Virus record (IMG/VR): IMGVR_UViG_3300042900_000713
Coordinates: 1 to 39,885 of that record
Length of the DNA stretch: 39,885 nucleotides
Reading direction: 5' to 3' (one strand)
Source of the DNA: a virus
Lineage: Duplodnaviria; Heunggongvirae; Uroviricota; Caudoviricetes
The position numbers and the translations under genes were made by a program. This document shows, piece after piece, positions 24,501 to 39,885 of the stretch; positions within the stretch are counted from its first letter, which is position 1; each line of letters starts with the position of its first letter. The notes under the pieces were generated by a model, which was not told the origin of the DNA, ran no database searches, and saw nothing but the letters and a program-made list of their open reading frames with translations.

Positions 24501-27500
24501 CTTAGGAGGAAGTTTATCAGTAACACCAATACCAGGTACAGAAGTTGTAGCGATACCAATTGCTTGCGCCGACTTAGTAGGGTATGAATATATTATTTCT
24601 TCTCCAGTAACATAGTAATTGTAGGGAATTGTAATTATATTTTTATCAACTTTAATAATATCTGGATTAGTGCCATCGATATATCTTTCAAAAATTGGTA
24701 TATTTTTATGTTTTAACTCAAATTCTTTTTTAATATCTGAATTTGTTCCTGTGTATATTCCATAATCATATTCTAGAGATCCATTTATTAATGATATGTC
24801 GTCAATATTATTACTCAATCCAATGTTAATTGCAAATACTTTGATATCAACATCAATATCTTGAATGGGAGTGAAATAAATTTCAGTATTTGCACCAGAA
24901 ATTCCTGCCGTTGTAATTCCTAAAGAAGATTCTGTTTGTAAAATTCCGAATTCTGTAATATAGCATTGATTTTCTTCGTAATTTGTTACAACTAAAATTT
25001 CAGAAACTTGATATTTTGAATTGGTCTTATCTTCAATACTAATAATATAATATGAACTATTGTAATTTGTATTTGAATAACTTGATATTATGTTTGCTAC
25101 TGGAGAAACACTGGAGGAAATTGCGACTGAAGATGAATTTAGAGAACTTCCTCCAATAATTTCAGTTCCAATTCCGGAAGCACTAGTATTTGCCAAAGAC
25201 ACATTAAAAGTATTAACAATATAATCAATAGAAGTTACTGTATCTGGTATTAAATCAATTTTAATCTCCGAACCAGACAAATAAGCATTATATGTTCCAA
25301 TGCCCAAAGATGAACGTGAAGTAAAACTATCGGTTGTTATTTGTCCATAATCTAATAAATGAATTTGATTTCCATCGTTAATAATAGTAATCTCATCAAC
25401 TTCATAATATGAAGAATCAGTTGCTCCAATTTGAACTAAAACTTTTGATGCTCTATAAGTAGATGCAATTCCTACAATAGAAGTAGAAATTCCAGTTCCT
25501 TGTGGAATTATAGTATTACTAGTATTAATATGAACAGAATTTCCTAAATCTACTGTACCAATTCCACTTAGACTATCGTTGAGGGAGAAAGAAAAAATTT
25601 GTAAATTATAATTATTAAATTTTGTTTTTACTGGATAAAAAAGTAAATTTCCAGATGTTCCAGAAACACTAAAATCAAAAAATCCCAAATTCGGAGATTC
25701 TACTACATTTAATCCATATTGGTTCATAAATCCAACATTATTGTCGTGAAGAAGTACTATGGCACTAAATTGTTTCTCATTTATAAATTTTTGATCTTGT
25801 ATTAGAATAAAATATTTTTTAGATCTGACATTTGTTAACGTAAATGAGTCTACAATACTAAACTCTGTTGCTCTAGGATTACTATTAAATTCATTTGAAA
25901 TATTATCAATTACTAAAACTCTATTTCCAATAGATTCAATATAATCTTGAATAACTCTAGAATCAAATAAAATTTCATTAGAAGTAATAGTATCGTCAAT
26001 GATAAGATTATTTTCCCGAGCAAGATCAAAATCATAAACACAATTAAGGTCAATGAATCTAGACAAATCTGCAGTACCAGAAAAATCTCCTTGATTTTGA
26101 TCTGTTGAAATTCCGATATTTAATGGTTTTGATTCTATAATTAAATTACCAAATTTTTTAAATCCTGCGGTATGGTTTAACGAACTTACTGGATTATCCC
26201 AAGTAGTCAAATCTTTTTGAGATTTCAATTCATATGAAAAATATTGATAATAATCACTATCATGAATTCGTTGAAAATCGTTATTTAAAAATCCAGTTTC
26301 GGTATTCCACCCTTTTCTTGTTTTTGAGGATGAATCAACAGCATAATTAGATTCATAACTTAATATATCATTAATAATACCAACGGAGTTTGAAGTTTTT
26401 CCTCGTATATTACTACCAATAGGAAAATCATCAACTGTGGATATTTTGAGATATTGATTATCTGGATCCCAAAATTGAACATTTCCAACTGATGATTCAA
26501 AATAAATTATTTCTCCTTCATAAAAAGAGTTTTTCTTTAGAATTGGATTAAAAGTTGGAAAATATGATTCTGGAATTATTCTTCCTGCAGATGAGTTAAT
26601 TTTAAATGTTCCCGGAATTTCTTCATTATTCAAATAAGATGAGAGGTTGTATGTAACAACTCCAACTGATCCACCAAGATTTGGATCTACAGCAGTAAGA
26701 GTAAATAATGCATAATCATAATTTGAACTGTTATATCCTTTACCGGTACTATTAACACCTACACTTATACCTTCAATTAATACTTTACTCCCCACTTCAA
26801 ATGGATAATCTTCGGGATTACTAAAACTTGCACCTATAGTTACGGTTACATTTTTAGTTGAGTTGTTAAATGTAATATTATCAATTTTAATTCCATTTGA
26901 ATTATTTGTTGGAATAATTTTAGGAATCGCATTATTAAGAGAACTACTGTTTTTACGTATAGTTACTAAAGAATCACCAAGATTATAAAATAAGTCAACA
27001 TCACTAACTATTTTATTAGTTATTCCATCAATAACTACAAGATCTGGAGAAGCAGTATAATCTTTTCCAATTGAATTAATTTCAATATAATCAAAAAATG
27101 AAAGAGGTTCCAAAACTAATATACTAGGGAACTTCGTGGTAGGTCTAACACTGTAATCAGCAGAATAATCAAATCCAATATCTTGTATTTCTATTGATGT
27201 AATCTTTCCAATAGAACTGGTTTTGGGTTTAACAATTGCATTTAAACCTAAATTAGATTCTATGGAAGTAACTGAAGGTAATCTTGAATATCCTTTTCCT
27301 TTACTTAGAACTTTAACCTCATAAATTGATCCTTGTGCTGAAAGTGAATTATTAGTATAGTATTCTATGCCTTGAGTGTAAATTGGTTCTTCAGGAAATT
27401 CTAAAATATTAAAACTAAATGTTGTGGAAGTAATTCCTACGACTGAGTATTCACCATTATATTTGCTCTCAGATAAAGTAATTTTATTAAATCCTCGTAC

Positions 27501-30500
27501 TTCTGTATCAATTAAAATATCTTTTTTAATTTGCGAATTTCTGTCCAAATTAGTAGGAACCAATTTATAAAATAAATTAGTCGGAGTACTATCATTAATA
27601 GTTAACGTAATATTTGCGGTGGAAGTAATTCCAATTGTACCAATTCCTGATATATCAAATATTTGTGAAGACTGCGTTGTATTGAATTCATCAATAAATT
27701 GTTCATCCCGATAAAATCTAAATTCAAAGGCAGAATAATTTGTCGAATTGGCGTTAAATGACAGAGAGGAATCTGAAAGATCAAAAACTACTCTTTTATT
27801 TTTTGTTAAATTGAGTGGCGGATTGATTGGTGAAATTGTTCCTGGATATGAAGTTGTAATATCAATTATCTCTGGAGGTAATTTAACTGATCCATAATAA
27901 GTATCTGATAATTTAATTTTATTCGAATCAATAGTAACAATATAATAAATTCCAAAATTGATTAAACCAGTTGCTGGAGTTGTCGCTGTGTATATAACTT
28001 TTTGTCCAGTATAGTATTGGTGATTATTAATTGTAATAATATTATTAATAGTATCAATAGATGAAAAAGTTCTAGGATTAATTACCAATCTTCTATTATA
28101 GTCATCATATTTTACTACGAGTGTAGTAGAAATTCCCGGTCTTACATTAATGTTTACATTATCAAGTAGAGATAATCCATGAGTTTCTGCAGTAGAAACA
28201 GTAACTACATTTTTACTAATATTTCCAGTTAAAGTATTTGTATAATTTGTTGTAAAACTATGATTATTTCCGGTTCCCACCGAAGTAAAGTATAAAATAC
28301 CAGATTTTAATGTTGATCCAACAGAAACAAAATTTCCAATTGATCCAAGTCCAACTTTAATAGTTGAAATTCCAATTAAATCATTAGAAATTTTTGCAGC
28401 ATAAACAATTGAATTTTCTTCTAGTTGAAAAGAAGAAGATCCATTAGTAGAAATTGATATAGCATTTCCACCATTTGAAGAATATATTAAAGAATCTCCA
28501 GTATTTAAATTGTGATTTTCAATATAAATTGATTGTGTTGGTATTGTAATTTGAGTAACTCCAACACCCGGATTTGAAAAATAAATTGTGCTAACAATAC
28601 CAACTCCAGAAGTTGTTCCTAATCCAACAGACTCTCTTGGATTAAAATAAAATTCTTTATTAACATTAAAATTATATGTGGTTGAAATTCCAAAATTAAG
28701 TTTTAGTTTTCTAGTTTTCTCAGTAAATCCAATACCGGCAACATATGAAGTCAATCCAGTAGTTCCATTTTGATTACGAAGAACTTTAATTCTAGATGAT
28801 CTGGAATCAATATTTAAAATTTTAATCTTTTCATTTTGAATTTGGTAGATATCATTTTCTTTGATATTTGGATAACTTAAATCTCCAGAGACATTAAAAT
28901 AAGTAATAATTCCAGTATATTGTGCGGAACCAATTCCAGATGTTAACGTGAGATTATTTGTATTAACTACTATATTACCTGACTTTTTATAATCATTACT
29001 ACCAGTAAAAGTAACTAGATCATTATTTGAATAATTGTGTGGAATTGAAGTAAATCCAATAAAAGACTGATTATATGGATAAAACTCAATTTCATTAAAA
29101 GATGATGTAGCAACACTAATTTGAGTTACTTGTTTCCCTTTAATTGAAGAAATTTTTGCTTTTGCTCCAAATCCAGATTGGTGATTAAAAATTAATCTAT
29201 CATTTATTTTATAATTTTGCCCACCATCAAAAATTTCTATAGAATCAATAGATCCTTCTAAAACACTTTTAACAATAGAGTTTTGTTCTTTAATTTTATT
29301 TGGGTTGAGTAAATAATCATACGAAGAAATGTTATATGGAGTAATATTTCTTTTCCAATTAGTTTGATTTATATCAATATAATCTTGATTTGAATAACTG
29401 TTAAAATTAAAATCAATTGGTTTTGCTTTATATGAAGGCCCAATTATATACGGAAAGATTGGTTTTTTTGAAACACTATTAATAGTTGAAAAATATGCAT
29501 AAACTCCATTTGGATACTCTGGAGTAATTCCAAATCTTCCATTATGTTCATCTAATTTATTAAATTCATCAGAATCTTTGTTTCCAACAAAATTATAATC
29601 TTCTATAAAAAATCCTTTTGGATAAATTGATTCTCTAGGTCTACTTGATGGCGAATCTATTAGGTCATACCCAGAAATTAATGGTATTACCTTTCCGCCA
29701 GTTTTTGACGCATATCCATATGGTCCATAAATTGGATTTCCATCATATGCCCACCCAATAATTGGTGAGTGTGAATTTGCTATCTGAACTATATTTTTTA
29801 GGTATTTTGGAGCATACGCATGTGAATATTGAAGTCCATAATTGCTGTTTAGTCCTGGAGTTAAAATTCCTTCGTCAACAGATATTTGAGAATTTATTAC
29901 TAATCTTTCTACCAAATTAATTTTCCAAGATTTAATTTGTGCTTCAAATTTTGCATCTAATCCTGCTGGCGTTACTGTAATTGAAGTGTCTGTGTGATTA
30001 TACCCAATTCCACCGTATATAACTTTAACTTCAACTAAAGATCCATTTGATAATATGGGAGTTAGTACTGCACCAGTACCAGTTCCATCAATTTGAAGAT
30101 TTGGTGGAGAATTGTACCCATTTCCAGAACTATTGACCAAAACATCAACGATTTGTCCATTTGAAATAATCGGTGTTAATTGAATTCCCGATCCAGAATT
30201 TAATTCAAAGAGTGGTTGTCTATTATAATTGATAATATCCTCAGAACCATAATTTAATCCACCAGAACTAATAAATATTGATTGTATTTGCCCCCTAAAG
30301 ATTGGTTGAGCGATAGCATTAAAATTTTGACCGGAAAGAGTAGAAACCCCAATTCTTCCACTAATAGATACACTTATTTCTGGATAATTAAATCTATGAG
30401 AACCAACACCAGAGGAAGTTAGATTCACATATTGATTTGTATCATAATAGAATTTTTTAGTAACACCTAGTGTACCAATTCCAATTTGAGATAATTTAAA

Positions 30501-33452
30501 TTGATCATCATCAATTATAGTCACATAGTAAGAAGTTGAAGATGATAATCCACCTATAACAGTTTCGGTGGGATTGTATGTAATAACTTCACCACTATTA
30601 TATCCATGATTTAAAACTGTAATAGTGTTTGATGCTGTATTAATACCACTTGCACTAGTTGCAACCAATTTGTTTTGATAGTTTATTCCACTATTTTCAA
30701 TAGTGATTGATCCTATTTTTTTCTTTTTATTTTTAGATTTAAATGAATGATTTCCTACTCCATAAGAAGTCAATTGAATAGTGTTAATTCCAATAACAGC
30801 ATCTTCAAATGACTTATGGAGTTTTATGTTATACGCATCTTGAACAGAGACAAAATACGTTGAATTTGTTGGTAGATTACCTATCGTAGATATACCGCCA
30901 ACAATAGGTGATTGTCCATCAGTTACGTAAATTACTTCTTCAGCATCTCTAAACTTATGATAACTAGAAAACCCAATTGTATTTGTAGGATTTAATTTTA
31001 CTAAACCTGCAGATCCAATTGAGTTAAAAGAAACACTATGATCAAAACTTGCTAGATTTACTTTTGCAGATGCTCCAGATCCATTACCACCGATAATATC
31101 AATCGTAGGATCTTCAAGGTAATCAAACCCAGGATCTATGATATCAATTCTCTCCAGTCCACCAATAACCGAGCAATATCCATTAGCCCCAAATCCATTA
31201 GGATCTATAATTGATAAAATTGGGGGATTGATTACGTCATACCCTGAACCAGGTGCAGATACCACAATATCTTCAATTGGACCATAAAAAACATTATCTG
31301 TTGATTTATAATTAAGAAGTTCTACTCCATTAATAAAAATACCAGTTAATCCAGGTACAGTTTCATAAATTTTTCCATCAATTTCTGGATTGGAAATTTT
31401 TCTAATTAATTTTTGTGGTTCAAGTATTTGTGTATCTAGATTATTGTAAGTAAACTTTGTAAGTTCAAATTTAGCATTCTTAACATCGGCATCTATAGAA
31501 ATAAAATTTTCAGTAAAAATATTATTCCTACTTCTTGCCAATTTTATTTCAGTACCACTTATTCTTTTGATAAAATAAACGCCCGTTGAAATTCCTAAAG
31601 AATTTCCCAATGATGGTTTATATACAATTGAATCTCCAGTATAAAACTTATGTGTACCTATGTCTAAAGTAGTACCTTTGTTTAAATTATCCGCATCATC
31701 TGGTAAAAAAGTTCCACTAAAAGATATTGAACCATCATTTATGCTTAATGGTATATTTAAATATGTTGGAAGTGATGGTGAAGCAACATATAAAGAATCT
31801 TGATCTAGATAAACATTTTGAACATTTGAAGTATATTTACTCAATGATGGATATTTGTTTTTATCAGTATTAGATAACTGAACTTTAGATACATTTTTTT
31901 GAACAATATATGTTTGATTTATATTTAAATTTTGATTTGATCCAAGTAAAACACTAAAAGATTTTTCATCATTAATAGAAGTAATATTTGTAATCAGTGG
32001 ATCACCTGAAGAGGGAATTAAAGATATTGAATCTCCTAATCTAAAAGAATGATTATCAGGCACAGTAAAGGTGTATGAACCTTCAGCAGCATTATCTAAA
32101 GTTGAAATTCCGGAAACTGAGTATTTTACCGGAATATTGAAAAACCAATTATTTGCTTTAACATCTTTACTATCAATACCTAAAGTTTTTATTTTTACAA
32201 TATCTCCTTTTGAATAAAAAAGAGTATTATCAGGTATCGGTAAATCGGATAAAACACCAAGAATTCTAATTTTTACTATCTCTTCGTTAGAATATCCATA
32301 TACAAAGAAATCTGATTTGACTTCTGTTGCTGAAGGAATGTCTTGAGTAATTCCAATACAATCTAAAAATTGATTTAGTGTTTTTGACGCATAAGTAACA
32401 TTTAAAGATGTTCCATTATCAAGATCAATAATTAAGTTCCCATTTGAATTTGGAAATGCTACGGTAGAGTCTACTTCTAGTGTTGTTGATCCAGAAATTA
32501 CTGAAGATACTGATACTATTCGTGTTTTTGGGTGTATTTGAAATTTTCCATAAACACTTCCGCTTGGTTGTATATCTTTATCATAATCCGAATCTAAACT
32601 TATAACATAATAATCTTTAGATTCTCTTCTAATTTTTTCAACATTAGTTATAGTTCCCTGTGCTCTGTTTATATTTTCAGTTTCATCTTGGTAGAGAGTT
32701 GTATTTACAAGATCTTCAGGATTCCCTTCGATTTTTTCTACAACTAAATCAGAAGTGATTCTATATTGTGCGCTAGATGGTTGAATTAAATAATCTCTAG
32801 GTCTAATGACTTCAACATTTTGTCCATATAATGCACCAAATAAAATTTTAAAGGAATTGTCAGTTCCTTTTGAAGAATAAAAATCAATAGATTGCTTTAC
32901 AAAAAGTCTTTCATCTAAATCAACATATAATTCTCTTTCTTCAAATCCTGGGGTAATTTGCTTTTTAACTTTCTTGAAAAATTCTTTAAGAAAAAGAATA
33001 CTTAAGTTAGATACTTTTGTGGATAAGATATGTTCTTCTACTTGTGTTTCAGAAAAACTTAACTGATCCTTAATTTCGTATGATGTAGTTCCATCGAAAC
33101 CACGAATGCACCCTTCAAAAGATGTAGACGTTTTTGAGGTATATGTAATAATCTCAGAATCTATTAAAATAAGTCCATATGAATCCGGAAATCCTAATGT
33201 TGAATCAACATTAATTGTAGTATCAAAAAATGTTACATTTGATGATAATTTAGTTGATTCAATTAAATTTGCTAAGTTATCAACTTTAATATATTGATCA
33301 ATATTTTGAAGTATATCACTAGTGTGTCCATCACTTTCTAATGAAATATAATATTGTGATAAAAATTCAGAAACAAGAGGAAACTCTTCTTTAACAAACT
33401 CTGGAAGTTGATTTTGAATGATTGAACTGATTTTGATTCTGGTTTTTCTCAT
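21528..33452 (-). CDS. g7: Giant baseplate wedge initiator (gp7-like), 3974 aa
   Basis: Lies between g6 and g8. N-terminus KISSIIQNQLPEFVKEEFPL and FYSSKGTDNSFKILFGALYG; WDNPVSSLNHTAGFKKFG; many GxGY and H-x-x-x-TG(D/E)-x-(I/V)-x-Y repeats. Confidence 0.85.
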   Translation of the reverse strand: MRKTRIKISSIIQNQLPEFVKEEFPLVSEFLSQYYISLESDGHTSDILQNIDQYIKVDNLANLIESTKLSSNVTFFDTTINVDSTLGFPDSYGLILIDSEIITYTSKTSTSFEGCIRGFDGTTSYEIKDQLSFSETQVEEHILSTKVSNLSILFLKEFFKKVKKQITPGFEERELYVDLDERLFVKQSIDFYSSKGTDNSFKILFGALYGQNVEVIRPRDYLIQPSSAQYRITSDLVVEKIEGNPEDLVNTTLYQDETENINRAQGTITNVEKIRRESKDYYVISLDSDYDKDIQPSGSVYGKFQIHPKTRIVSVSSVISGSTTLEVDSTVAFPNSNGNLIIDLDNGTSLNVTYASKTLNQFLDCIGITQDIPSATEVKSDFFVYGYSNEEIVKIRILGVLSDLPIPDNTLFYSKGDIVKIKTLGIDSKDVKANNWFFNIPVKYSVSGISTLDNAAEGSYTFTVPDNHSFRLGDSISLIPSSGDPLITNITSINDEKSFSVLLGSNQNLNINQTYIVQKNVSKVQLSNTDKNKYPSLSKYTSNVQNVYLDQDSLYVASPSLPTYLNIPLSINDGSISFSGTFLPDDADNLNKGTTLDIGTHKFYTGDSIVYKPSLGNSLGISTGVYFIKRISGTEIKLARSRNNIFTENFISIDADVKNAKFELTKFTYNNLDTQILEPQKLIRKISNPEIDGKIYETVPGLTGIFINGVELLNYKSTDNVFYGPIEDIVVSAPGSGYDVINPPILSIIDPNGFGANGYCSVIGGLERIDIIDPGFDYLEDPTIDIIGGNGSGASAKVNLASFDHSVSFNSIGSAGLVKLNPTNTIGFSSYHKFRDAEEVIYVTDGQSPIVGGISTIGNLPTNSTYFVSVQDAYNIKLHKSFEDAVIGINTIQLTSYGVGNHSFKSKNKKKKIGSITIENSGINYQNKLVATSASGINTASNTITVLNHGYNSGEVITYNPTETVIGGLSSSTSYYVTIIDDDQFKLSQIGIGTLGVTKKFYYDTNQYVNLTSSGVGSHRFNYPEISVSISGRIGVSTLSGQNFNAIAQPIFRGQIQSIFISSGGLNYGSEDIINYNRQPLFELNSGSGIQLTPIISNGQIVDVLVNSSGNGYNSPPNLQIDGTGTGAVLTPILSNGSLVEVKVIYGGIGYNHTDTSITVTPAGLDAKFEAQIKSWKINLVERLVINSQISVDEGILTPGLNSNYGLQYSHAYAPKYLKNIVQIANSHSPIIGWAYDGNPIYGPYGYASKTGGKVIPLISGYDLIDSPSSRPRESIYPKGFFIEDYNFVGNKDSDEFNKLDEHNGRFGITPEYPNGVYAYFSTINSVSKKPIFPYIIGPSYKAKPIDFNFNSYSNQDYIDINQTNWKRNITPYNISSYDYLLNPNKIKEQNSIVKSVLEGSIDSIEIFDGGQNYKINDRLIFNHQSGFGAKAKISSIKGKQVTQISVATSSFNEIEFYPYNQSFIGFTSIPHNYSNNDLVTFTGSNDYKKSGNIVVNTNNLTLTSGIGSAQYTGIITYFNVSGDLSYPNIKENDIYQIQNEKIKILNIDSRSSRIKVLRNQNGTTGLTSYVAGIGFTEKTRKLKLNFGISTTYNFNVNKEFYFNPRESVGLGTTSGVGIVSTIYFSNPGVGVTQITIPTQSIYIENHNLNTGDSLIYSSNGGNAISISTNGSSSFQLEENSIVYAAKISNDLIGISTIKVGLGSIGNFVSVGSTLKSGILYFTSVGTGNNHSFTTNYTNTLTGNISKNVVTVSTAETHGLSLLDNVNINVRPGISTTLVVKYDDYNRRLVINPRTFSSIDTINNIITINNHQYYTGQKVIYTATTPATGLINFGIYYIVTIDSNKIKLSDTYYGSVKLPPEIIDITTSYPGTISPINPPLNLTKNKRVVFDLSDSSLSFNANSTNYSAFEFRFYRDEQFIDEFNTTQSSQIFDISGIGTIGITSTANITLTINDSTPTNLFYKLVPTNLDRNSQIKKDILIDTEVRGFNKITLSESKYNGEYSVVGITSTTFSFNILEFPEEPIYTQGIEYYTNNSLSAQGSIYEVKVLSKGKGYSRLPSVTSIESNLGLNAIVKPKTSSIGKITSIEIQDIGFDYSADYSVRPTTKFPSILVLEPLSFFDYIEINSIGKDYTASPDLVVIDGITNKIVSDVDLFYNLGDSLVTIRKNSSSLNNAIPKIIPTNNSNGIKIDNITFNNSTKNVTVTIGASFSNPEDYPFEVGSKVLIEGISVGVNSTGKGYNSSNYDYALFTLTAVDPNLGGSVGVVTYNLSSYLNNEEIPGTFKINSSAGRIIPESYFPTFNPILKKNSFYEGEIIYFESSVGNVQFWDPDNQYLKISTVDDFPIGSNIRGKTSNSVGIINDILSYESNYAVDSSSKTRKGWNTETGFLNNDFQRIHDSDYYQYFSYELKSQKDLTTWDNPVSSLNHTAGFKKFGNLIIESKPLNIGISTDQNQGDFSGTADLSRFIDLNCVYDFDLARENNLIIDDTITSNEILFDSRVIQDYIESIGNRVLVIDNISNEFNSNPRATEFSIVDSFTLTNVRSKKYFILIQDQKFINEKQFSAIVLLHDNNVGFMNQYGLNVVESPNLGFFDFSVSGTSGNLLFYPVKTKFNNYNLQIFSFSLNDSLSGIGTVDLGNSVHINTSNTIIPQGTGISTSIVGIASTYRASKVLVQIGATDSSYYEVDEITIINDGNQIHLLDYGQITTDSFTSRSSLGIGTYNAYLSGSEIKIDLIPDTVTSIDYIVNTFNVSLANTSASGIGTEIIGGSSLNSSSVAISSSVSPVANIISSYSNTNYNSSYYIISIEDKTNSKYQVSEILVVTNYEENQCYITEFGILQTESSLGITTAGISGANTEIYFTPIQDIDVDIKVFAINIGLSNNIDDISLINGSLEYDYGIYTGTNSDIKKEFELKHKNIPIFERYIDGTNPDIIKVDKNIITIPYNYYVTGEEIIYSYPTKSAQAIGIATTSVPGIGVTDKLPPKLYVVKLNDSQIRVSTSASDALKTTPKVLELTSVGIGSSHLFTSKNQNKKAIIGIDNVIQSPIVSTAITSSLIRNLTAFSSLVYVSGITSVYGGDLIKIDEEIMKVTAVGVGSTNSISVVRPWMGTGLSTHSSSSLVSKVYGNYNIVGNKIYFSEAPYGKVPFVNQSNRADEQDYVGIATGSSFSGRIFLRSGIADSNNESYSNNYIFDDISNDFDGIQKTFTLKSNGTNVSGISTDNTIVLVNEIFQGPNFVDYDLSESSGITSISFTGSATSTSYDVNTSSIPRGGIILSVGSTQGFAYQPLVSAGGTAVVSVAGTIQSISIGNSGSGYRSGIQTVVNVGVVTSNVGIPNIQLIGTASISGGSVVSVAITNPGVGYTSSNPPIVIFDDPLSYSNIPLIYNSQSSSGVGTGAVVDIIVGQGSSVISFELKNFGYGYNINEVLTVSIGGTIGIPTNTSLSFSEFQLSIDGVYSDAFTAWTVGSLQVIDPIDSLFDGNRKSFPIRIGGNQTSIRTKKGSIIDVQATLLIFINDILQVPGEGYRFSGGSIIRFTEAPKEGDTSKIIFYRGTADIDTLDVDILETIKQGDKVTLTSNDIKLKENSRLVTEIISSDILSTNLYSGPGITENEDLSRPLTWCRQTEDLVINGKQVGKDRVLYEPYIQPTTNIIQNIGIGSSIIFVESVKAFFDSEKEYTHDGITEKPQNKIIIISQDSIVSSSATAVVSTSGTISSIIISDNGNGYTTIPTVSIAGPIGFGTTTIQNTARALATISGGVVTGIAITSAGLGYTFTYPPVVLIETPPTKYEIIDKISYEGDFGIITGVQTTSVGVASTGIVFDLFIPTNSIIRDSSIVKVGIATTGISGIQTGYYFIVHSSNVGNGLTSLNLSGGVVGVGTTFINNIYQVASVSIAQTAVPGVGLTNVTKVTVSVSNYNNLTGLGFSDFYGEYSWGRILTPIRPNPDEFITYANIGGISSSPVIQRYNRLKYSNYNT

Positions 33453-36301: not shown

Positions 36302-37084
36302 TCAAATAATACGAGTTTTTTCATGACCTACACGAATACGTGGATCACACCAGATTTCAAATCCTTTTTCAATTGCATCAAGACAGAATGAAACGTCTTC
36401 ACCACACATATCCTGAACTGCACCAGACTCAAAGACTTGCATCTTTGGAGCAAACCATGGATATTCAAGATTCTCAAAGACTCCGTGCTTAATGAGTACC
36501 CAACCAAATCCAGTGTAATCAACTGTGAAAGGTTTGCGACGCTTACCAATTGATTCAACATTTTCATGATTCATCACTCCACCGTTCTTACGGAAGTCAT
36601 CTTCTTCTAACCAGTGTGCTACTGAGGTTGTGTGACCATCTTCAGTAGCATACCAACCGGCAACAATTTCTTTCTCTTTCACATTACCCTCTTCATCAGG
36701 TTCTGTTAATGCCATATCACAAAGTTGCCAAAACTTTTCTGTATTGAAAACAATATCAGAGTCAATCCAAAGTTGATAATCATAATTAAGTTTTCCATCC
36801 CAAGGAATTTGCTTGGGACCACGAAGAACATTTGCTCCTAAAACTTTACAACGTGCGAAATTAACCATTGATGAGTAGTCTTGAGAAATCTGAATACTCA
36901 TTCCATTTTGAACTAAATCAAAACATAATTGAACAAATGCTTTGAGAAATGTAAAAGAACACCCTCTACCTGGAAGGCAGAAAACAATTGATTTTCCTTT
37001 CATTCTATTTTTGATTGCATCATAATCCCAATCTTCAGTCTTGGGAGTTGGTGCTGCTGCTTTTACGGTGAAACCTTTAGCCAT
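36302..37084 (-). CDS. Glycosyltransferase-like protein (GT-A fold, DxD motif), 260 aa
   Basis: YDYQLWIDSDIVF; VDYTGFGWVLIK..VFE; GEDVSFCLDAIEKGFEIWCDPRIRVGHEK, a GT2-like signature. Confidence 0.75.
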   Translation of the reverse strand: MAKGFTVKAAAPTPKTEDWDYDAIKNRMKGKSIVFCLPGRGCSFTFLKAFVQLCFDLVQNGMSIQISQDYSSMVNFARCKVLGANVLRGPKQIPWDGKLNYDYQLWIDSDIVFNTEKFWQLCDMALTEPDEEGNVKEKEIVAGWYATEDGHTTSVAHWLEEDDFRKNGGVMNHENVESIGKRRKPFTVDYTGFGWVLIKHGVFENLEYPWFAPKMQVFESGAVQDMCGEDVSFCLDAIEKGFEIWCDPRIRVGHEKTRII

Positions 37085-37108
37085 AAGTTTTATTTAAACC
37101 TCAAGTCA

Positions 37109-37137
37109 ATTTTAGCGTTCTATTTAGATTTTGTCAA
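37109..37137 (-). promoter_or_regulatory. Sigma70-type promoter TTGACA-N17-TAAAAT with an embedded CTAAATA late-like motif
   Basis: -35 at 37132-37137, -10 at 37109-37114, exact 17-bp spacer, 24 nt upstream of the GT-like gene. Confidence 0.75.
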
Positions 37138-37319
37138 TACGAGGAACTTAACATTAATTCCTTATCTAAAGTTACTTCTTCGTACGATAGTTCTTTAGAA
37201 TTTGATAGAAGATCTGAGAGGCGATTTAGTGCAACCCAGGTTGTTGTAAAATCATCCTCTTTAAGTGAATGGTAAATGCATTGACCACGAGCATATATGT
37301 GATATATTGTTTGAGACAT
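37134..37319 (-). CDS. Hypothetical protein, 61 aa
   Basis: ORF track; co-oriented and fills the gap. Confidence 0.65.
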   Translation of the reverse strand: MSQTIYHIYARGQCIYHSLKEDDFTTTWVALNRLSDLLSNSKELSYEEVTLDKELMLSSSY

Positions 37320-37324
37320 ATATT

Positions 37325-37507
37325 TTATTTTGTCAACGCATTATATATCATCACCAATAAAAACCCCAGAGGTACTCCAATAATACGGAAAACCTTACCT
37401 GGGTAACGAATTAACCACCCAGCAAATACAACCTTCCAAAAATTCCAATAGGGGGTTTTTGGTGAATTTTTTTGGGCGCGGTTTTTTTGAGAGGCGGGGT
37501 AATTCAC
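37325..37507 (-). CDS. Small putative membrane protein, 60 aa (GTG start, exact start uncertain)
   Basis: PYWNFWKVVFAGWLIRYPG and hydrophobic C-terminus IIGVPLGFLLVMIYNAL; an extended -10 (TGcTATAAT) lies at 37551-37559. Confidence 0.65.
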   Translation of the reverse strand: MNYPASQKNRAQKNSPKTPYWNFWKVVFAGWLIRYPGKVFRIIGVPLGFLLVMIYNALTK

Positions 37508-37713
37508 TTTGATTTTTTTTTCGTCTGGGATTTTTTGTGTGCCTTAGAATATTATAGCATTTTTTGTGAGAGTCTTATATAACTATCGCGTTTCTTAAGA
37601 TTTGTAGGTTACAGGGACCCATCGATTTTTATCGGCATGGCGCCGCCCATAAGGATCGCTTATCATTAAAAACACTGTCCATAAGCACGACTAATGACTG
37701 TACTTAAGCACGA

Positions 37714-37756
37714 ACATAGTGGGTGCTAAGTGTAACGAACTCAGCACCCACTATGT
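37714..37756 (-). other. Strong hairpin (14-bp perfect stem, extendable to 18 bp with one G-U pair on the minus strand)
   Basis: ACATAGTGGGTGCT...AGCACCCACTATGT, 5 nt after the stop of ORF 37762-38064; no U-tract follows. Confidence 0.8.
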
Positions 37757-37761
37757 GTAAC

Positions 37762-38064
37762 TCAGACGCAATACCTACCGACTACAACGGACTCACACGA
37801 TTGCACAATCTTAACGACCAAACCGCTGAAATAGGTTTGGTTACAGATACCTTGCCAACCCTGCGCCAGTAGATCACCCTCTGTCCGAAGAAACTCCGCC
37901 AGAGCATACACTTGCCCCCGGTACTTGAAGAACATCGCAGAATCGAAGTCTGCGTCATTCATGTAGTCAAACTCTTTACGGAGTTTGGTATACTGTGCGC
38001 CGTTAAGTTCAAACGCCGAGATGAGATCGCGGGGAACGAAGTTGGTGGTGATGGCGATAGACAT
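37762..38064 (-). CDS. Hypothetical early-region protein, 100 aa
   Basis: ORF track; preceded by its own GC hairpin and TACACT box. Confidence 0.8.
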   Translation of the reverse strand: MSIAITTNFVPRDLISAFELNGAQYTKLRKEFDYMNDADFDSAMFFKYRGQVYALAEFLRTEGDLLAQGWQGICNQTYFSGLVVKIVQSCESVVVGRYCV

Positions 38065-38084
38065 GATGAGAACGTTTTGAGAAC

Positions 38085-38118
38085 AGTGTACTGAATGGGG
38101 GAGGATTGCGCCTCCCCC
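38085..38118 (-). promoter_or_regulatory. Variant hairpin plus -10 element (GGGGGAGG-cgcaat-CCTCCCCC ... TACACT)
   Basis: 8-bp stem at 38097-38118; TAnnnT box at 38085-38090; lies between the stop at 38126 and the ATG at 38064. Confidence 0.55.
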
Positions 38119-38125
38119 GATTACA

Positions 38126-38302
38126 TCAGGCGTCGAAGGTTTCCATCGCCCAACTCCACAAACTACGGGAATTGATAAGGTCTACGGAATAGGTCTTGCC
38201 AAACCTATTCTTCAAACCGTCAACTACATAACCCTCACGAGAAGAACCCGTGAGGATATAACCGGATTGCTGGCAGTGAGCGAGGATCTGATCGAAGGTC
38301 AT
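38126..38302 (-). CDS. Cassette ORF, hypothetical, 58 aa
   Basis: Below the track cutoff. MTFDQILAHCQQSGYILTGSSREGYVVDGLKNRFGKTYSVDLINSRSLWSWAMETFDA; its ATG is the last triplet of repeat A. Confidence 0.75.
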   Translation of the reverse strand: MTFDQILAHCQQSGYILTGSSREGYVVDGLKNRFGKTYSVDLINSRSLWSWAMETFDA

Positions 38303-38379
38303 CGGTCTCGTGTGCGGTGTTGACTCTGGAATTGTAGCACGGATCCGGGGGGACCGTGAGTCCCCCCTCGCTGGATTCA
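38300..38379 (-). repeat. Intergenic regulatory cassette, copy A (80 nt, stop codon to start codon)
   Basis: Minus strand TGAATCCAGCGA-GGGGGGAC-TCACG-GTCCCCCC-GGATCCGTGC-TACAAT-TCCA-GAGTCAACACCGCAC-ACGAGACCG-ATG. Confidence 0.95.
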
Positions 38380-38634
38380 GACTGCGACCCAGTAGGAATA
38401 GTTCGGGGTATTGTCTAGATCCCGCTGCTCTGCCATGATGTACTCATGACGGAAGTTGTAATGAGCATCGGATGCCCGCCATCCCTGGCACTGATTGTAA
38501 ACATCTTCCAGAGTGCGAGCATAAGCAATAGTGCAGGCGATTCTGCCATCCACAACCTTAGCAACGGCAAACGGGTAACGGTCCGGGGTGAGAATGGTCT
38601 TGAGCGGGGTCGGGGTGATGGTGGAAGCGGTCAT
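38377..38634 (-). CDS. Cassette ORF, hypothetical, 85 aa
   Basis: The likely start is the ATG at 38634 (MTASTITPTPLK...) at the end of repeat B. The track's extension to 38724 merely reads through the repeat. Confidence 0.75.
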   Translation of the reverse strand: MTASTITPTPLKTILTPDRYPFAVAKVVDGRIACTIAYARTLEDVYNQCQGWRASDAHYNFRHEYIMAEQRDLDNTPNYSYWVAV

Positions 38635-38711
38635 CGGTCTCGGGTGCGGTGTTGACTCTGGAATTGTAGCACGGATCCGGGGGGACCGTGAGTCCCCCCT
38701 CGCTGGATTCA
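38632..38711 (-). repeat. Intergenic regulatory cassette, copy B (80 nt)
   Basis: Identical to copy A at 79 of 80 positions by manual alignment. Confidence 0.95.
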
Positions 38712-38897
38712 GTATCCTAACCACACCAGCAGTTCGCCTAGATCTACTCGCCCGAACTTCGCGGTAGTTCCGTACTCTGAACGAAAGTCATTCAGGCAGC
38801 AGTGGTCTTTAGCAACCTCGTAGGCAAGATGCCAGGAGATTGTATCACTATCGTCTGCCGCGTTTTGTAGAATCTGCGGAAGGGTGGCGCTGTTCAT
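38709..38897 (-). CDS. Cassette ORF, hypothetical, 62 aa
   Basis: ATG ends repeat C and TGA begins repeat B. Confidence 0.75.
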   Translation of the reverse strand: MNSATLPQILQNAADDSDTISWHLAYEVAKDHCCLNDFRSEYGTTAKFGRVDLGELLVWLGY

Positions 38898-38974
38898 TGT
38901 GTCGTGTGCGGTGTTGACTCTTTAATCCTAGTCGGTCAGGAGGGGGACCCGTGAGTCCCCCCTTGCTGGATTCA
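38895..38974 (-). repeat. Intergenic regulatory cassette, copy C (80 nt, TAGGAT variant)
   Basis: TGAATCCAGCAAG-GGGGGAC-TCACGG-GTCCCCC-TCCTGACCGAC-TAGGAT-TAAA-GAGTCAACACCGCAC-ACGACACA-ATG. Confidence 0.93.
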
Positions 38975-39187
38975 ATCAACCCATAACGCGTTAGCGATGA
39001 TGCTCGCCGCTCCCCCTATGTCATCTCTGACGATCCTGCGAAGAACTTCCTGCCCCAATTCGGTTTTGTGCATGGCACGGATACCCTCAGCACTTTTGGG
39101 ATCGTATGCAACGACCTTGAATGACTCCGCGATCAGGAGAAGAACCTCGGGGGTGAGGGCGGCAGGGGTGATGGTGGAAGCGGTCAT
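38972..39187 (-). CDS. Cassette ORF, hypothetical, 71 aa
   Basis: ATG ends repeat D and TGA begins repeat C; shares MTASTITP with the ORF at 38634. Confidence 0.75.
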   Translation of the reverse strand: MTASTITPAALTPEVLLLIAESFKVVAYDPKSAEGIRAMHKTELGQEVLRRIVRDDIGGAASIIANALWVD

Positions 39188-39262
39188 CGGTCTCGTGTGC
39201 GGTGTTGACTCTGGAATTGTAGCACGGATCCGGGGGACCCGTGAGTCCCCCAGCAGGATTCA
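39185..39262 (-). repeat. Intergenic regulatory cassette, copy D (78 nt, TACAAT variant)
   Basis: TGAATCCTGCT-GGGGGAC-TCACGG-GTCCCCC-GGATCCGTGC-TACAAT-TCCA-GAGTCAACACCGCAC-ACGAGACCG-ATG. Confidence 0.93.
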
Positions 39263-39433
39263 GATTATCGGTGAGATCACTTCGTTCGAGAATGCATCGG
39301 CGAACTGCGCTGCTAATGCAGTAGCGGGAACACCATAATCGGTCGTGAGCGGATTAAACGTAGAATCGTCATTCTTGCGAGCGACCCAGACGGTGGCGCG
39401 GTCAGAGAGGCGGGATGCTTGTGATAGAATCAT
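39260..39433 (-). CDS. Cassette ORF, hypothetical, 57 aa
   Basis: Below the track cutoff. MILSQASRLSDRATVWVARKNDDSTFNPLTTDYGVPATALAAQFADAFSNEVISPII; bounded by repeats E and D. Confidence 0.7.
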   Translation of the reverse strand: MILSQASRLSDRATVWVARKNDDSTFNPLTTDYGVPATALAAQFADAFSNEVISPII

Positions 39434-39511
39434 GATCGGTCTCGGGTGCGGTGTTGACTCGGTAAGTCTAGCGGGTCAGAGGGGGGACCGTGAGTCCCCC
39501 CGGCAGAATCA
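39431..39511 (-). repeat. Intergenic regulatory cassette, copy E (81 nt, TAGACT variant)
   Basis: TGATTCTGCC-GGGGGGAC-TCACG-GTCCCCCC-TCTGACCCGC-TAGACT-TACC-GAGTCAACACCGCAC-CCGAGACCGATC-ATG. Confidence 0.93.
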
Positions 39512-39682
39512 CCAGATCGCAGGGGATCCGTTCCGGTAGGATCCGATGATCATGCCGTTCTGGCGAACCTCAGCGTACCCATAATCCTGCGAGAGATCCA
39601 GGCAGAGATCCCATGCGCGATCGGCATCGGTGGTTTCGTTCTCCCAGGTGGCAGCGGGGCAGATGACGGAGAGGCGGGTCAT
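39509..39682 (-). CDS. Cassette ORF, hypothetical, 57 aa
   Basis: Below the track cutoff. MTRLSVICPAATWENETTDADRAWDLCLDLSQDYGYAEVRQNGMIIGSYRNGSPAIW; bounded by repeats F and E. Confidence 0.75.
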   Translation of the reverse strand: MTRLSVICPAATWENETTDADRAWDLCLDLSQDYGYAEVRQNGMIIGSYRNGSPAIW

Positions 39683-39767
39683 GGTCTCGTGTGCGGTGTT
39701 GACTCTGTAATCCTAGTCGGTCAGGAGGGGGAACCGTGAGTCCCCCGTGCCAGTTGCTAGATTGTCA
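39680..39767 (-). repeat. Intergenic regulatory cassette, copy F (88 nt, TAGGAT variant, divergent 5' end)
   Basis: TGACAATCTAGCAACTGGCAC-GGGGGACTCACGGTTCCCCC-TCCTGACCGAC-TAGGAT-TACA-GAGTCAACACCGCAC-ACGAGACC-ATG. Confidence 0.9.
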
Positions 39768-39885
39768 CATCGCCCAGAGATCATCTACCGTACACTCCAT
39801 CATCGCGGCAAATTGCTCACAACTAAGTGAGTAATCTATCGGAGACAGTGTAGGAATGTCATTCTCCCAGACTACATTAAACTCT
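39765..39885 (-). CDS. 3' end of another short ORF (start lies outside the window)
   Basis: Open frame ...EFNVVWENDIPTLSPIDYSLSCEQFAAMMECTVDDLWAM*, ending at the TGA that opens copy F. Confidence 0.55.
   Translation of the reverse strand, partial: EFNVVWENDIPTLSPIDYSLSCEQFAAMMECTVDDLWAM

What the first reader, a model, noticed from the sequence alone, without database searches (positions are those of the whole stretch)
38126..39885. Array of single-gene cassettes joined by a repeat running exactly from stop codon to start codon
Seen: six copies of a 78-88 nt element alternate with mutually unrelated 57-85 aa ORFs. The element begins with the upstream gene's TGA and ends with the next gene's ATG, so each ORF forms a self-contained unit. 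A, B and C are each exactly 80 nt, and A and B match at 79/80. Known: repeated promoter-stem-loop cassettes (PeSLs) were described as shuffling modules in some T4-type phages, and a distinct early-gene element was reported for cyanophage Syn9. I cannot tell whether this element belongs to either class. Inference: this is an integrase-free, integron-like gene-shuffling platform in which recombination between repeats gains, loses or reorders early host-interaction genes.
Basis: partly seen in the sequence, partly recalled or inferred. Interest (0 to 1): 0.85.

Follow-up and report, generated by a model that had tools for sequence, protein, structure and literature searches.

The report
Cyanophage promoter-hairpin gene cassette array
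A T4-like cyanophage separates its tiny accessory genes with ~80-base repeats that combine a GC hairpin and a promoter box, and related phages differ by whole genes gained, lost or swapped at these repeats: a cyanophage version of the already described 'PeSL' shuffling cassettes, not a new kind of system.

Summary
Six 78-88 nt units, each running from a TGA stop to the next ATG, lie on the minus strand and separate unrelated 57-85 aa ORFs. A and B match at 79/80.

The window cuts the array. At least 18 copies run from 38.3 to 45.2 kb of a 124.7-kb contig of a T4-like cyanophage (Kyanoviridae-like).

Each unit has a GC hairpin, an invariant TAnnnT -10 box, exactly 5 nt, then RAGTCAAC and a CA-rich leader of about 20 nt. 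Most copies outside the window, and copy F, also carry an upstream dyad (GTGNCA-N10-TGNCAC) 30-32 nt before the -10 box.

The box-bearing form of the module occurs in cultured Syn9 and S-CREM1.

Close relatives show cassette changes at the repeats:
- a one-gene insertion or deletion;
- a swap for a divergent allele;
- a swap for an unrelated gene;
- a different gene order.

In one clean case in a related GC-rich array, the single repeat is a chimera of the two repeats that flank the extra gene.

The window's cassettes are strongly GC-rich (GC3 0.53-0.74 against 0.13-0.22 in core genes).

This works like PeSLs of T4-type phages but lacks their -35 box and AT-rich upstream region. I rate it a new variant of a known kind. 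The scan has noted the same thing before in this genome and in other cyanophage contigs. No transcript or read data could be used.

The parts
38300..38379 (-). Unit A (80 nt, TGA to ATG). Hairpin at 38347-38367, TGcTACAAT extended -10 at 38331-38339, AGTCAAC at 38319-38325. No upstream dyad.
38632..38711 (-). Unit B (80 nt), 79/80 identical to A. The repeat continues about 27 nt into the downstream ORF.
38895..38974 (-). Unit C (80 nt). Same hairpin, TAGGAT -10 box. This is the site where relative L004 carries one extra cassette.
39185..39262 (-). Unit D (78 nt), A-type promoter half. Shares its first codons (MTASTITP) with the ORF behind unit B.
39431..39511 (-). Unit E (81 nt), TAGACT -10 box.
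39680..39767 (-). Unit F (88 nt). The only window copy with the upstream dyad GTGACA-N10-TGGCAC (39747-39768), which contains the stop codon of the upstream gene.
38062..38128 (-). Seventh, divergent unit: GGGGGAGG...CCTCCCCC hairpin, TACACT -10-like box, leader, ATG. It has a twin at contig 40052-40118, just beyond the window.
   Evidence: read from the sequence; partial profile hit at contig 40090-40118
37762..38064 (-). Last gene of the array (100 aa, PHROG family of unknown function). 80% identical to the protein in relative L062.
38126..38302 (-). Cassette ORF, 58 aa, no known family. GC3 0.58.
38377..38634 (-). Cassette ORF, 85 aa. 53 metagenomic homologues. Confident small alpha/beta model with no informative fold match.
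38709..38897 (-). Cassette ORF, 62 aa. In relative L004 it is replaced by an allele only 54% identical in DNA, between repeats that are 97-99% identical.
38972..39187 (-). Cassette ORF, 71 aa.
39260..39433 (-). Cassette ORF, 57 aa.
39509..39682 (-). Cassette ORF, 57 aa, GC3 0.74. Homologues in many phage contigs and in Synechococcus phage S-CREM1.
39765..39885 (-). 3' part of a 49-aa cassette ORF whose start (contig 39914) lies beyond the window end.
37715..37762 (-). 13-bp-stem inverted repeat directly after the last gene of the array, at the border with the AT-rich structural genes. Probable terminator closing the array.
   Evidence: read from the sequence; GC step

Best explanation
The repeats are compact terminator-like hairpin plus promoter units that punctuate the variable small-gene region of a T4-like cyanophage. 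Each gives one small accessory gene its own expression signals.

Reading the gene strand, a unit runs as follows:
1. the stop codon of the upstream gene;
2. in most copies outside the window and in F, a 22-bp dyad, GTGNCA-N10-TGNCAC, best read as a protein-binding site;
3. a GC-rich hairpin packed into the fixed 30-32 nt between the dyad and the -10 box;
4. an invariant TAnnnT -10 box (with an extended TG in A, B and D);
5. exactly 5 nt;
6. RAGTCAAC at the predicted transcript start;
7. a CA-rich leader of about 20 nt with no Shine-Dalgarno sequence;
8. the ATG.

The units share 20-80 nt of near-identical sequence in one orientation. Recombination between them deletes, inserts, replaces or reorders whole genes without breaking neighbours. 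The most likely agent is the phage's own homologous recombination.

Shown here:
- the anatomy of the unit;
- conservation of the hairpin through different sequences;
- the rigid spacing;
- presence of the box-bearing form in cultured cyanophages;
- cassette differences bounded by repeats between relatives;
- one chimeric repeat, in a related array.

Inferred, not shown:
- promoter activity and the transcript start;
- what the hairpin does in RNA;
- the recombination machinery;
- early timing of expression.
For: **Anatomy**
- 18 copies in one orientation over 38.3-45.2 kb.
- In a 48-copy alignment the T, A and T of TAnnnT are invariant and AGTCAAC is at least 90% conserved.
- The dyad spacer is always 10 nt. 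The distance from dyad to -10 is 30-32 nt. The distance from -10 to AGTC is always 5 nt.

**Hairpin**
- 33 of 40 distinct spacers fold better than 95% of shuffles (mean z -3.2).
- There are 34 different hairpin sequences of several unrelated stem types at the same place.

**Dyad**
- Its variable half-site positions combine as expected under independence: 11 mismatched against 9 paired. It behaves like a protein site, not a stem.

**Same box-bearing module in cultured phages**
- Syn9 at 48575-48624, 51017-51066 and 53013-53062, and S-CREM1.

**Cassette changes between relatives**
- L004, 92-98% identical, has one extra 274-nt cassette inside unit C. It also has a 54%-identical allele between 97-99% identical repeats.
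- L086 has an unrelated 110-aa ORF in place of a 66-aa one. Both ends of the difference lie at the dyad/hairpin border.
- L062 has homologues in another order, and many cassettes are not shared.
- L089 against L090 differ by one extra gene. The single repeat in L089 is a chimera of the two repeats that flank the extra gene in L090.

**The ORFs are real genes**
- Differences from close relatives fall 28/20/66 on codon positions 1/2/3.

**Phage type**
- Sheath, terminase, neck and baseplate proteins are T4-like. The nearest match is Synechococcus phage B23/B3.
Against: - There is no conserved -35 hexamer and no T-run after the hairpins. Simple sigma-70 promoter and intrinsic-terminator scans do not call the units.
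- Whole-unit folding is not better than dinucleotide-preserving shuffles for the G-run/C-run copies.
- All compared sequences are metagenome assemblies. Repeats of 80 nt can be mis-joined, and the stretch 38700-39172 is confirmed by no second contig.
- No RecA/UvsX-type gene was found in the 58% of the genome held.
- In one comparison (L090 against L089, cassettes c18/c19 and c06) one end of the difference lies inside an ORF, not in a repeat.
Confidence: 0.75

Rival explanations
1. The repeats are only regulatory modules (promoter, activator site, RNA hairpin) kept alike by selection. The gene-content differences arise by ordinary recombination anywhere, and repeats look like the boundaries only because breaks inside genes are removed by selection.
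For: The spacing is rigid and the -10 and leader boxes are invariant, as expected for function under selection. The same module occurs in low copy number in Syn9, where no array exists. One end of one difference lies inside an ORF.
Against: A clean chimeric repeat marks the site of a one-gene difference (L089 against L090). Repeats are 97-99% identical while the genes between them are 54-97% identical. The repeat extends into the first codons of two unrelated ORFs in two separate places.
Confidence: 0.15
2. The hairpin is a true recombination site. A structure-specific or site-specific enzyme cuts and joins at the extruded GC hairpin, much as integron attC sites fold as hairpins. Cassettes would then move as circles between phages.
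For: The ends of the differences cluster at the start, the loop or the 3' edge of the hairpin in the events read here. The original PeSL paper raised the same idea for GGGG...CCCC stems and detected mini-circles in RB49/phi1 (PMC2839356).
Against: No integrase or resolvase is present in the DNA held. The ends of the differences are not at one fixed nucleotide. The hairpin is also the longest stretch shared between units of different subtypes, so homologous exchange would end there anyway. Only a handful of events were examined.
Confidence: 0.07
3. The apparent gains, losses and reorderings are artefacts of assembling mixed phage strains through 80-nt repeats.
For: Every compared sequence is a metagenome contig. 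A and B share more than 60 nt of exact identity, which is enough to confuse short k-mers.
Against: Independent contigs from other samples reproduce the window's order over two long stretches. In the read events the shared sequence is only about 20-25 nt. Three contigs from three samples carry the same alternative orders, L088 equal to L089 and different from L090. Replacement by a 54%-identical allele cannot be a mis-join of the same genome.
Confidence: 0.03

Closest known systems
PeSLs (promoter-early stem-loops) of T4-type phages RB49/phi1, T4/PST and KVP40/nt-1 (Arbiol et al. 2010, PMC2839356; Comeau et al. 2014, PMC4122927)
   Same: [quoted passage not shown] Both have a G-run/C-run stem-loop next to a promoter, are dense in the variable small-gene regions of T4-like phages, flank single genes of unknown function, and mark insertions, deletions and replacements between close relatives.
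   Different: PeSLs have a full sigma-70 promoter (-35, 17 nt, -10) with an AT-rich upstream region and the stem-loop upstream of it. Here there is no conserved -35 and no AT-rich region. The hairpin sits where the -35 would be. Many copies add a 22-bp dyad at a fixed distance, and a conserved RAGTCAAC leader follows. PeSLs were not described for cyanophages, and a study of S-PM2 found no dense PeSLs there (PMC4503421). Terminator activity and mini-circles were shown for PeSLs but not here.
Early-gene regulatory element of T4-like cyanophages (Doron et al. 2016, ISME J 10:1437; Syn9 and P-TIM40)
   Same: The box-bearing form of the unit (dyad half-site, 31 nt, TAnnnT, 5 nt, AGT) is present in Syn9 at 48.6, 51.0 and 53.0 kb among its small genes, and in S-CREM1. 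From my memory of the abstract, that paper reports a novel element controlling early transcription that is widespread in T4-like cyanophages.
   Different: The paper is not in the library, so its motif could not be compared letter by letter. Window copies A-E lack the dyad altogether. The dense array, the stop-to-start packaging, the nested hairpin and the cassette turnover are, as far as I could find, not part of that description.
CGRE1, the palindromic site of the GntR/PlmA-type regulator PMM1637 in yfr2 promoters of marine picocyanobacteria (Lambrecht et al. 2018, PMC6191309)
   Same: A palindrome of about 22 nt upstream of a -10-type promoter in the presumed host group.
   Different: Not confirmed here. 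The paper's text describes GTTG/GTTA flanks 13-14 nt apart around a GTGATCAC-like centre, starting 55-57 nt before the transcript start. The phage dyad is GTGNCA-N10-TGNCAC and starts about 64-65 nt before the predicted start. The logo and the supplement are not held.
Integron gene cassettes (attC plus IntI)
   Same: Arrays of single small genes in one orientation, separated by short imperfect palindromes, with cassette-level gain and loss.
   Different: No integrase, no common promoter and no attI. Every cassette has its own promoter box. The repeats are regulatory units, not dedicated recombination sites.

Membership tests
PeSL (T4-type promoter-early stem-loop) | Repeated intergenic unit from upstream stop codon to downstream ATG, in a variable small-gene region of a T4-like phage | tested here: met
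   Units A-F measured. 18 copies over 38.3-45.2 kb. T4-like structural genes.
PeSL (T4-type promoter-early stem-loop) | Stable stem-loop, typically a G-run and a C-run | tested here: met
   9-10 bp G/C stems in A-F. 33 of 40 distinct copies fold better than 95% of shuffles.
PeSL (T4-type promoter-early stem-loop) | Sigma-70-type promoter with both -35 (TTGACA-like) and -10 boxes 17 nt apart, plus an AT-rich upstream region | tested here: not met
   The -10 TAnnnT is invariant. No conserved -35 exists, the units are not called by the consensus scan, and the upstream part is GC-rich. Related arrays L088-L090 do carry TTGAC in the hairpin loop 17-18 nt before the -10.
PeSL (T4-type promoter-early stem-loop) | Units mark insertions, deletions and replacements of single ORFs between close relatives | tested here: met
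   L004, L086, L062, L088-L090.
PeSL (T4-type promoter-early stem-loop) | Stem-loop terminates transcription; the promoter is active; mini-circles form by recombination between units | not testable with these tools
No T-run follows the hairpins.
Cyanophage early-gene regulatory element (Doron et al. 2016) | The same motif lies upstream of early genes of Syn9 | tested here: inconclusive
   The box-bearing module is in Syn9 at three small-gene sites. The paper's own motif and gene timing could not be read. Window copies A-E lack the dyad.
CGRE1 / PMM1637 (PlmA-type GntR) site | Palindrome of 21-22 nt with GTTG/GTTA flanks and a GTGATCAC-like centre, starting 55-57 nt before the transcript start | tested here: inconclusive
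   Only the text description is available. The phage dyad has other flanks and lies about 8 nt further upstream by my count. The dyad does behave as a protein site rather than a stem.
Integron | IntI tyrosine recombinase with attI and a common promoter; promoterless cassettes ending in attC | tested here: not met
   No Phage_integrase or Resolvase domain in the 124.7 kb held. Every cassette has its own -10 box.
MITE- or REP-like selfish repeat | Terminal inverted repeats, target-site duplications, insertion in either orientation | tested here: not met
   All copies are in one orientation with exact stop-to-start geometry (13 on the gene strand against 1). No terminal repeats were seen.

The most novel reading that the evidence does not exclude
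The GC hairpin is not only an RNA signal. It would also be a structure-specific recombination site that lets single-gene cassettes leave as circles and re-enter any phage carrying the same unit. That would make a real, integrase-free cassette exchange network. It would explain how strongly GC-rich genes (GC3 up to 0.74) arrive in phages whose core genes have GC3 of 0.13-0.22.
Probability: 0.1. Interest if true: 0.8.

Novelty: new variant of a known kind. Interest (0 to 1): 0.4.

Why it matters
T4-like cyanophages are among the most abundant viruses of aquatic primary producers, and most of their variable genes have no known function.

The finding gives a concrete mechanism for how these phages try out accessory genes. 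The genes sit in self-contained units that carry their own expression signals, and whole units are gained, lost and swapped at the shared repeats.

It also gives a simple sequence handle for finding such genes in metagenomes: TAnnnT, 5 nt, AGTCAAC, with or without the dyad.

The strong GC contrast of the cargo suggests exchange with a much GC-richer gene pool, which bears on host range and on gene flow between phage lineages.

It extends the PeSL idea, so far documented for phages of enterobacteria and vibrios, to cyanophages, with a different promoter design. It does not reveal a new kind of system.

Tried and rejected
**Searches with no result**
- BLASTN of two units against 50,697 GenBank phage records: no match. 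Short, diverged repeats are below its reach, and the profile search later found copies in Syn9 and S-CREM1.
- Rfam scan of 12 kb of the array: no family.
- Pfam on ten cassette proteins: nothing. PHROGs: only families of unknown function.
- The 85-aa cassette protein folds confidently (pLDDT 87.5), but PDB and viral fold libraries give no informative match. It has no homologue in cultured phages.
- A 32-nt string across the promoter/hairpin border of unit C was not found in other viral contigs. The contig's own copy at about 40.4 kb contains the same string, so unit C need not itself be a chimera.
- Photosystem gene psbA is absent from the held 58% of the genome. The cyanophage label rests on structural-protein similarity.
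- No RecA/UvsX-type, tyrosine-recombinase or serine-recombinase domain in the held part.

**Tests that proved uninformative**
- Whole-unit folding against dinucleotide-preserving shuffles is not significant for the G-run/C-run copies, because the shuffles keep the runs. I replaced it with folding of the spacer alone across 40 distinct copies.
- Consensus promoter and terminator scans do not call the units.

**Ideas rejected**
- Reading TGGCAC as a sigma-54 box: the downstream half is missing, and (from general knowledge, not tested here) cyanobacteria lack sigma-54.
- Reading the dyad as an RNA stem: its commonest form is mismatched.

**Tools and sources not available**
- Doron et al. 2016 is not held.
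- The CGRE1 supplement is not held.
Full report
**1. What is there**

The window is the first 39,885 nt of a 124,703-nt viral contig that is estimated to be 58% complete. Its large genes encode T4-type proteins: tail sheath, tube, large terminase, neck and baseplate wedge. The neck protein is closest, at 58% identity, to Synechococcus phages B23 and B3, followed by other Kyanoviridae. No psbA is present in the held part, so 'cyanophage' rests on these structural similarities.

**2. The observation**

All genes of the region are on the minus strand. Measured from stop codon to start codon, the six repeats are:

| Unit | Coordinates | Length |
|---|---|---|
| A | 38379-38300 | 80 nt |
| B | 38711-38632 | 80 nt |
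| C | 38974-38895 | 80 nt |
| D | 39262-39185 | 78 nt |
| E | 39511-39431 | 81 nt |
| F | 39767-39680 | 88 nt |

- Each starts with TGA and ends with ATG. A and B agree at 79 of 80 positions.
- The ORFs between them are unrelated to each other.
- The ORFs behind B and D share their first codons, because the repeat runs about 27 nt into the coding sequence.
- A seventh, more divergent unit (another G/C hairpin, then TACACT) precedes the last gene at 38128-38062.
- A 13-bp-stem inverted repeat at about 37715-37762 closes the array at the border with the AT-rich structural genes.

**3. The array is much larger than the window shows**

Anchoring on RAGTCAAC gives 18 copies in one orientation between 38.3 and 45.2 kb of the contig. 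A profile built from them finds these copies at E 1e-8 to 1e-23, plus a few degenerate or isolated copies elsewhere.

A pattern for 'half-dyad, 29-33 nt, TAnnnT, 5 nt, AGT' hits 13 times on the gene strand, once on the other strand and once in the reversed-pattern control.

**4. Anatomy**

A 48-copy alignment from this contig and from related contigs (A1) shows:
- an invariant T, A and T in a TAnnnT box;
- AGTCAAC conserved at 90% or more;
- a conserved AACTGGCACA.

The last motif is the right half of a dyad, GTGNCA-N10-TGNCAC. In many copies its left half contains the stop codon of the upstream gene.

The geometry is rigid:

| Distance | Value |
|---|---|
| Dyad spacer | always 10 nt |
| Dyad end to -10 box | 30-32 nt (mode 31) |
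| -10 box to AGTC | always 5 nt |
| AGTC to ATG | 17-26 nt |

The variable position of the two half-sites combines as expected under independence: 11 mismatched, 9 paired. I therefore read the dyad as a protein-binding site and not as a stem.

Between the dyad and the -10 box sits a hairpin:
- 33 of 40 distinct spacers fold better than 95% of shuffles (mean z -3.2).
- There are 34 different hairpin sequences of several unrelated stem types at the same place. That is the kind of variation expected if the structure, not the sequence, is kept.

Window copies A-E have the hairpin, the -10 box and the leader but no dyad. A, B and D have an extended -10 (TGcTACAAT). C, E and F have TAGGAT or TAGACT.

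There is no conserved -35 hexamer and no T-run after the hairpins, so consensus scans for promoters and terminators do not call the units. In related GC-rich arrays (L088-L090) the hairpin loop is TTGAC, placed 17-18 nt before TAGAAT or TACAAT. That is a full host-type promoter folded around a hairpin.

**5. The cargo**

- The cassette ORFs have no Pfam family and only PHROG families of unknown function.
- They are real genes. Against close relatives, differences fall 28/20/66 on codon positions 1/2/3.
- The 85-aa ORF has 53 metagenomic homologues and a confident small alpha/beta model (pLDDT 87.5), with no informative structural match.
- The cargo is strongly GC-rich. GC3 is 0.53-0.74 in the window's cassettes, 0.28-0.49 further up the array and 0.13-0.22 in core genes (profiles).
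- The same GC-rich end of the array, next to an abrupt drop to about 34% GC, is seen in relatives L062, L089 and L090. It is a property of this genomic position in the lineage and not a chimeric contig.

**6. Do relatives keep a fixed order? No.**

(a) **L004**, a 5.6-kb contig 92-98% identical to the window over 36.0-39.2 kb.
- It carries one extra 274-nt cassette inside unit C.
- In place of the 62-aa ORF it has an allele only 54% identical in DNA, although the repeats on either side are 97-99% identical.
- The 85-aa ORF is a mosaic with a divergent middle.

(b) **L086**, 97% identical over 41305-41889.
- It has an unrelated 110-aa ORF with canonical units where the contig has a 66-aa ORF.
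- Both ends of the difference lie at the dyad/hairpin border.

(c) **L062**, a 45-kb relative with 68-93% protein identity in shared genes.
- It has the same flanks, but many cassettes are not shared.
- Homologues stand in another order. The contig order 40635, 40051, 39682, 39187 becomes 40051, 40635, 39187, 39682.

(d) **L088, L089 and L090**, three contigs from three samples that encode an identical homologue of the window's 85-aa protein.
- They differ in cassette content although the flanking cassette proteins are 100% identical.
- L090 has one extra gene between two units. The single unit at that place in L089 is the 5' part of one and the 3' part of the other, with the switch inside the hairpin.
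- In another difference between these contigs, one end lies inside an ORF. Not every event is bounded by repeats.

(e) A 10-kb ENA contig encoding another homologue shows at least 11 ORFs of 49-91 aa separated by 69-82 nt. No DNA was available for it.

Two independent contigs reproduce the window's own order over 36753-38699 and 39173-40105.

**7. How it most likely works**

- Each unit insulates and drives one small gene.
- The -10 box and the fixed 5-nt distance to RAGTCAAC predict a transcript start at that box.
- The CA-rich leader without a Shine-Dalgarno sequence fits translation initiation in picocyanobacteria. This rests on general knowledge and is not shown here.
- In RNA, the hairpin ends the upstream message as an attenuator or a 3' stabiliser. 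Without a T-run I would not call it a strong terminator.
- Where present, the dyad is probably an activator site.
- The units are the longest shared sequences in the region and all point the same way. Recombination between them removes, adds or exchanges whole genes and always restores a working unit.
- T4-like phages have very active homologous recombination that needs only short homology (as discussed in PMC2839356). No RecA-type gene was found in the held 58%, so this step is inferred.

**8. Comparison with what is known**

- **PeSLs.** The layout and the behaviour are those of PeSLs (PMC2839356 and PMC4122927). A defining PeSL feature is not met: a full sigma-70 promoter with a -35 box and an AT-rich upstream region. 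The dyad and the leader box are extra.
- **PeSLs in cyanophages.** I found no paper describing PeSL-type shuffling in cyanophages. The only paper holding both terms concludes that S-PM2 lacks dense PeSLs (PMC4503421).
- **Cultured cyanophages.** The box-bearing promoter module is not new to them. It occurs at three small-gene sites in Syn9 and in S-CREM1. It probably corresponds to the early-gene element reported for Syn9 and P-TIM40 by Doron et al. 2016, which I could not read.
- **CGRE1.** Earlier notes of this scan equate the dyad with the CGRE1 site of host yfr2 promoters. The text of that paper (PMC6191309) does not obviously match the phage dyad in sequence or position, so I leave this open.
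- **Integrons.** They are an analogy only.

**9. Earlier notes of the scan**

The same kind of cassette array has been noted in this genome (e1-1852078, e1-1852079, e1-5414639) and in at least a dozen other cyanophage contigs. I used these notes as leads and re-derived everything cited above.

**10. Verdict**

- The shuffling interpretation is supported by comparison with relatives. It is a cyanophage variant of a known kind.
- The regulatory roles and the recombination mechanism remain inferred.

Noticed in passing
window 12127-19941 and 21528-33452, minus strand: Two giant ORFs of 2604 and 3974 aa lie inside the baseplate and tail module, between gp6/gp7-like wedge genes. They are presumably fibre or virion decoration proteins.
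   Followed up: no
L001 7037-7397 (contig 43037-43397): Two neighbouring units are near-identical and extend into the first six codons (MTTTDT) of two otherwise unrelated 50-aa ORFs. The 61-aa ORF upstream (contig 43521-43336) reads through the whole dyad and spacer and stops inside the -10 box, so its last 20 or so codons are the unit itself.
   Followed up: partly
L088, L089, L090 (JGI metagenome contigs): In these 57-66% GC arrays the hairpin loop is TTGAC, 17-18 nt before TAGAAT or TACAAT. A complete host-type promoter is therefore wrapped around the hairpin. One 47-nt unit has the promoter but no hairpin.
   Followed up: partly
window 38000-39885 and contig to about 41000: GC3 of the cassette genes is 0.53-0.74 against 0.13-0.22 in the structural genes. 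This is a far larger contrast than the overall GC step (54% against about 33%). The gradient falls with distance up the array.
   Followed up: partly
L001 4116-4370 (contig 40116-40370), minus strand: An 84-aa cassette protein resembles a small winged-helix DNA-binding protein by eye. It has no Pfam hit and only a weak hit to a PHROG family of unknown function.
   Followed up: partly
L001 5882-5899 and 8659-8684, minus strand: Canonical intrinsic terminators (a stem followed by a run of 6-7 T) occur at a few places inside the array. The phage therefore does use T-run terminators, which makes the absence of T-runs after the unit hairpins more telling.
   Followed up: no
window 36302-37084, minus strand: A 260-aa protein of PHROG 1574, with a weak glycosyltransferase-like match, lies between the array and the baseplate genes. 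It is conserved in relatives L062 and L004.
   Followed up: no
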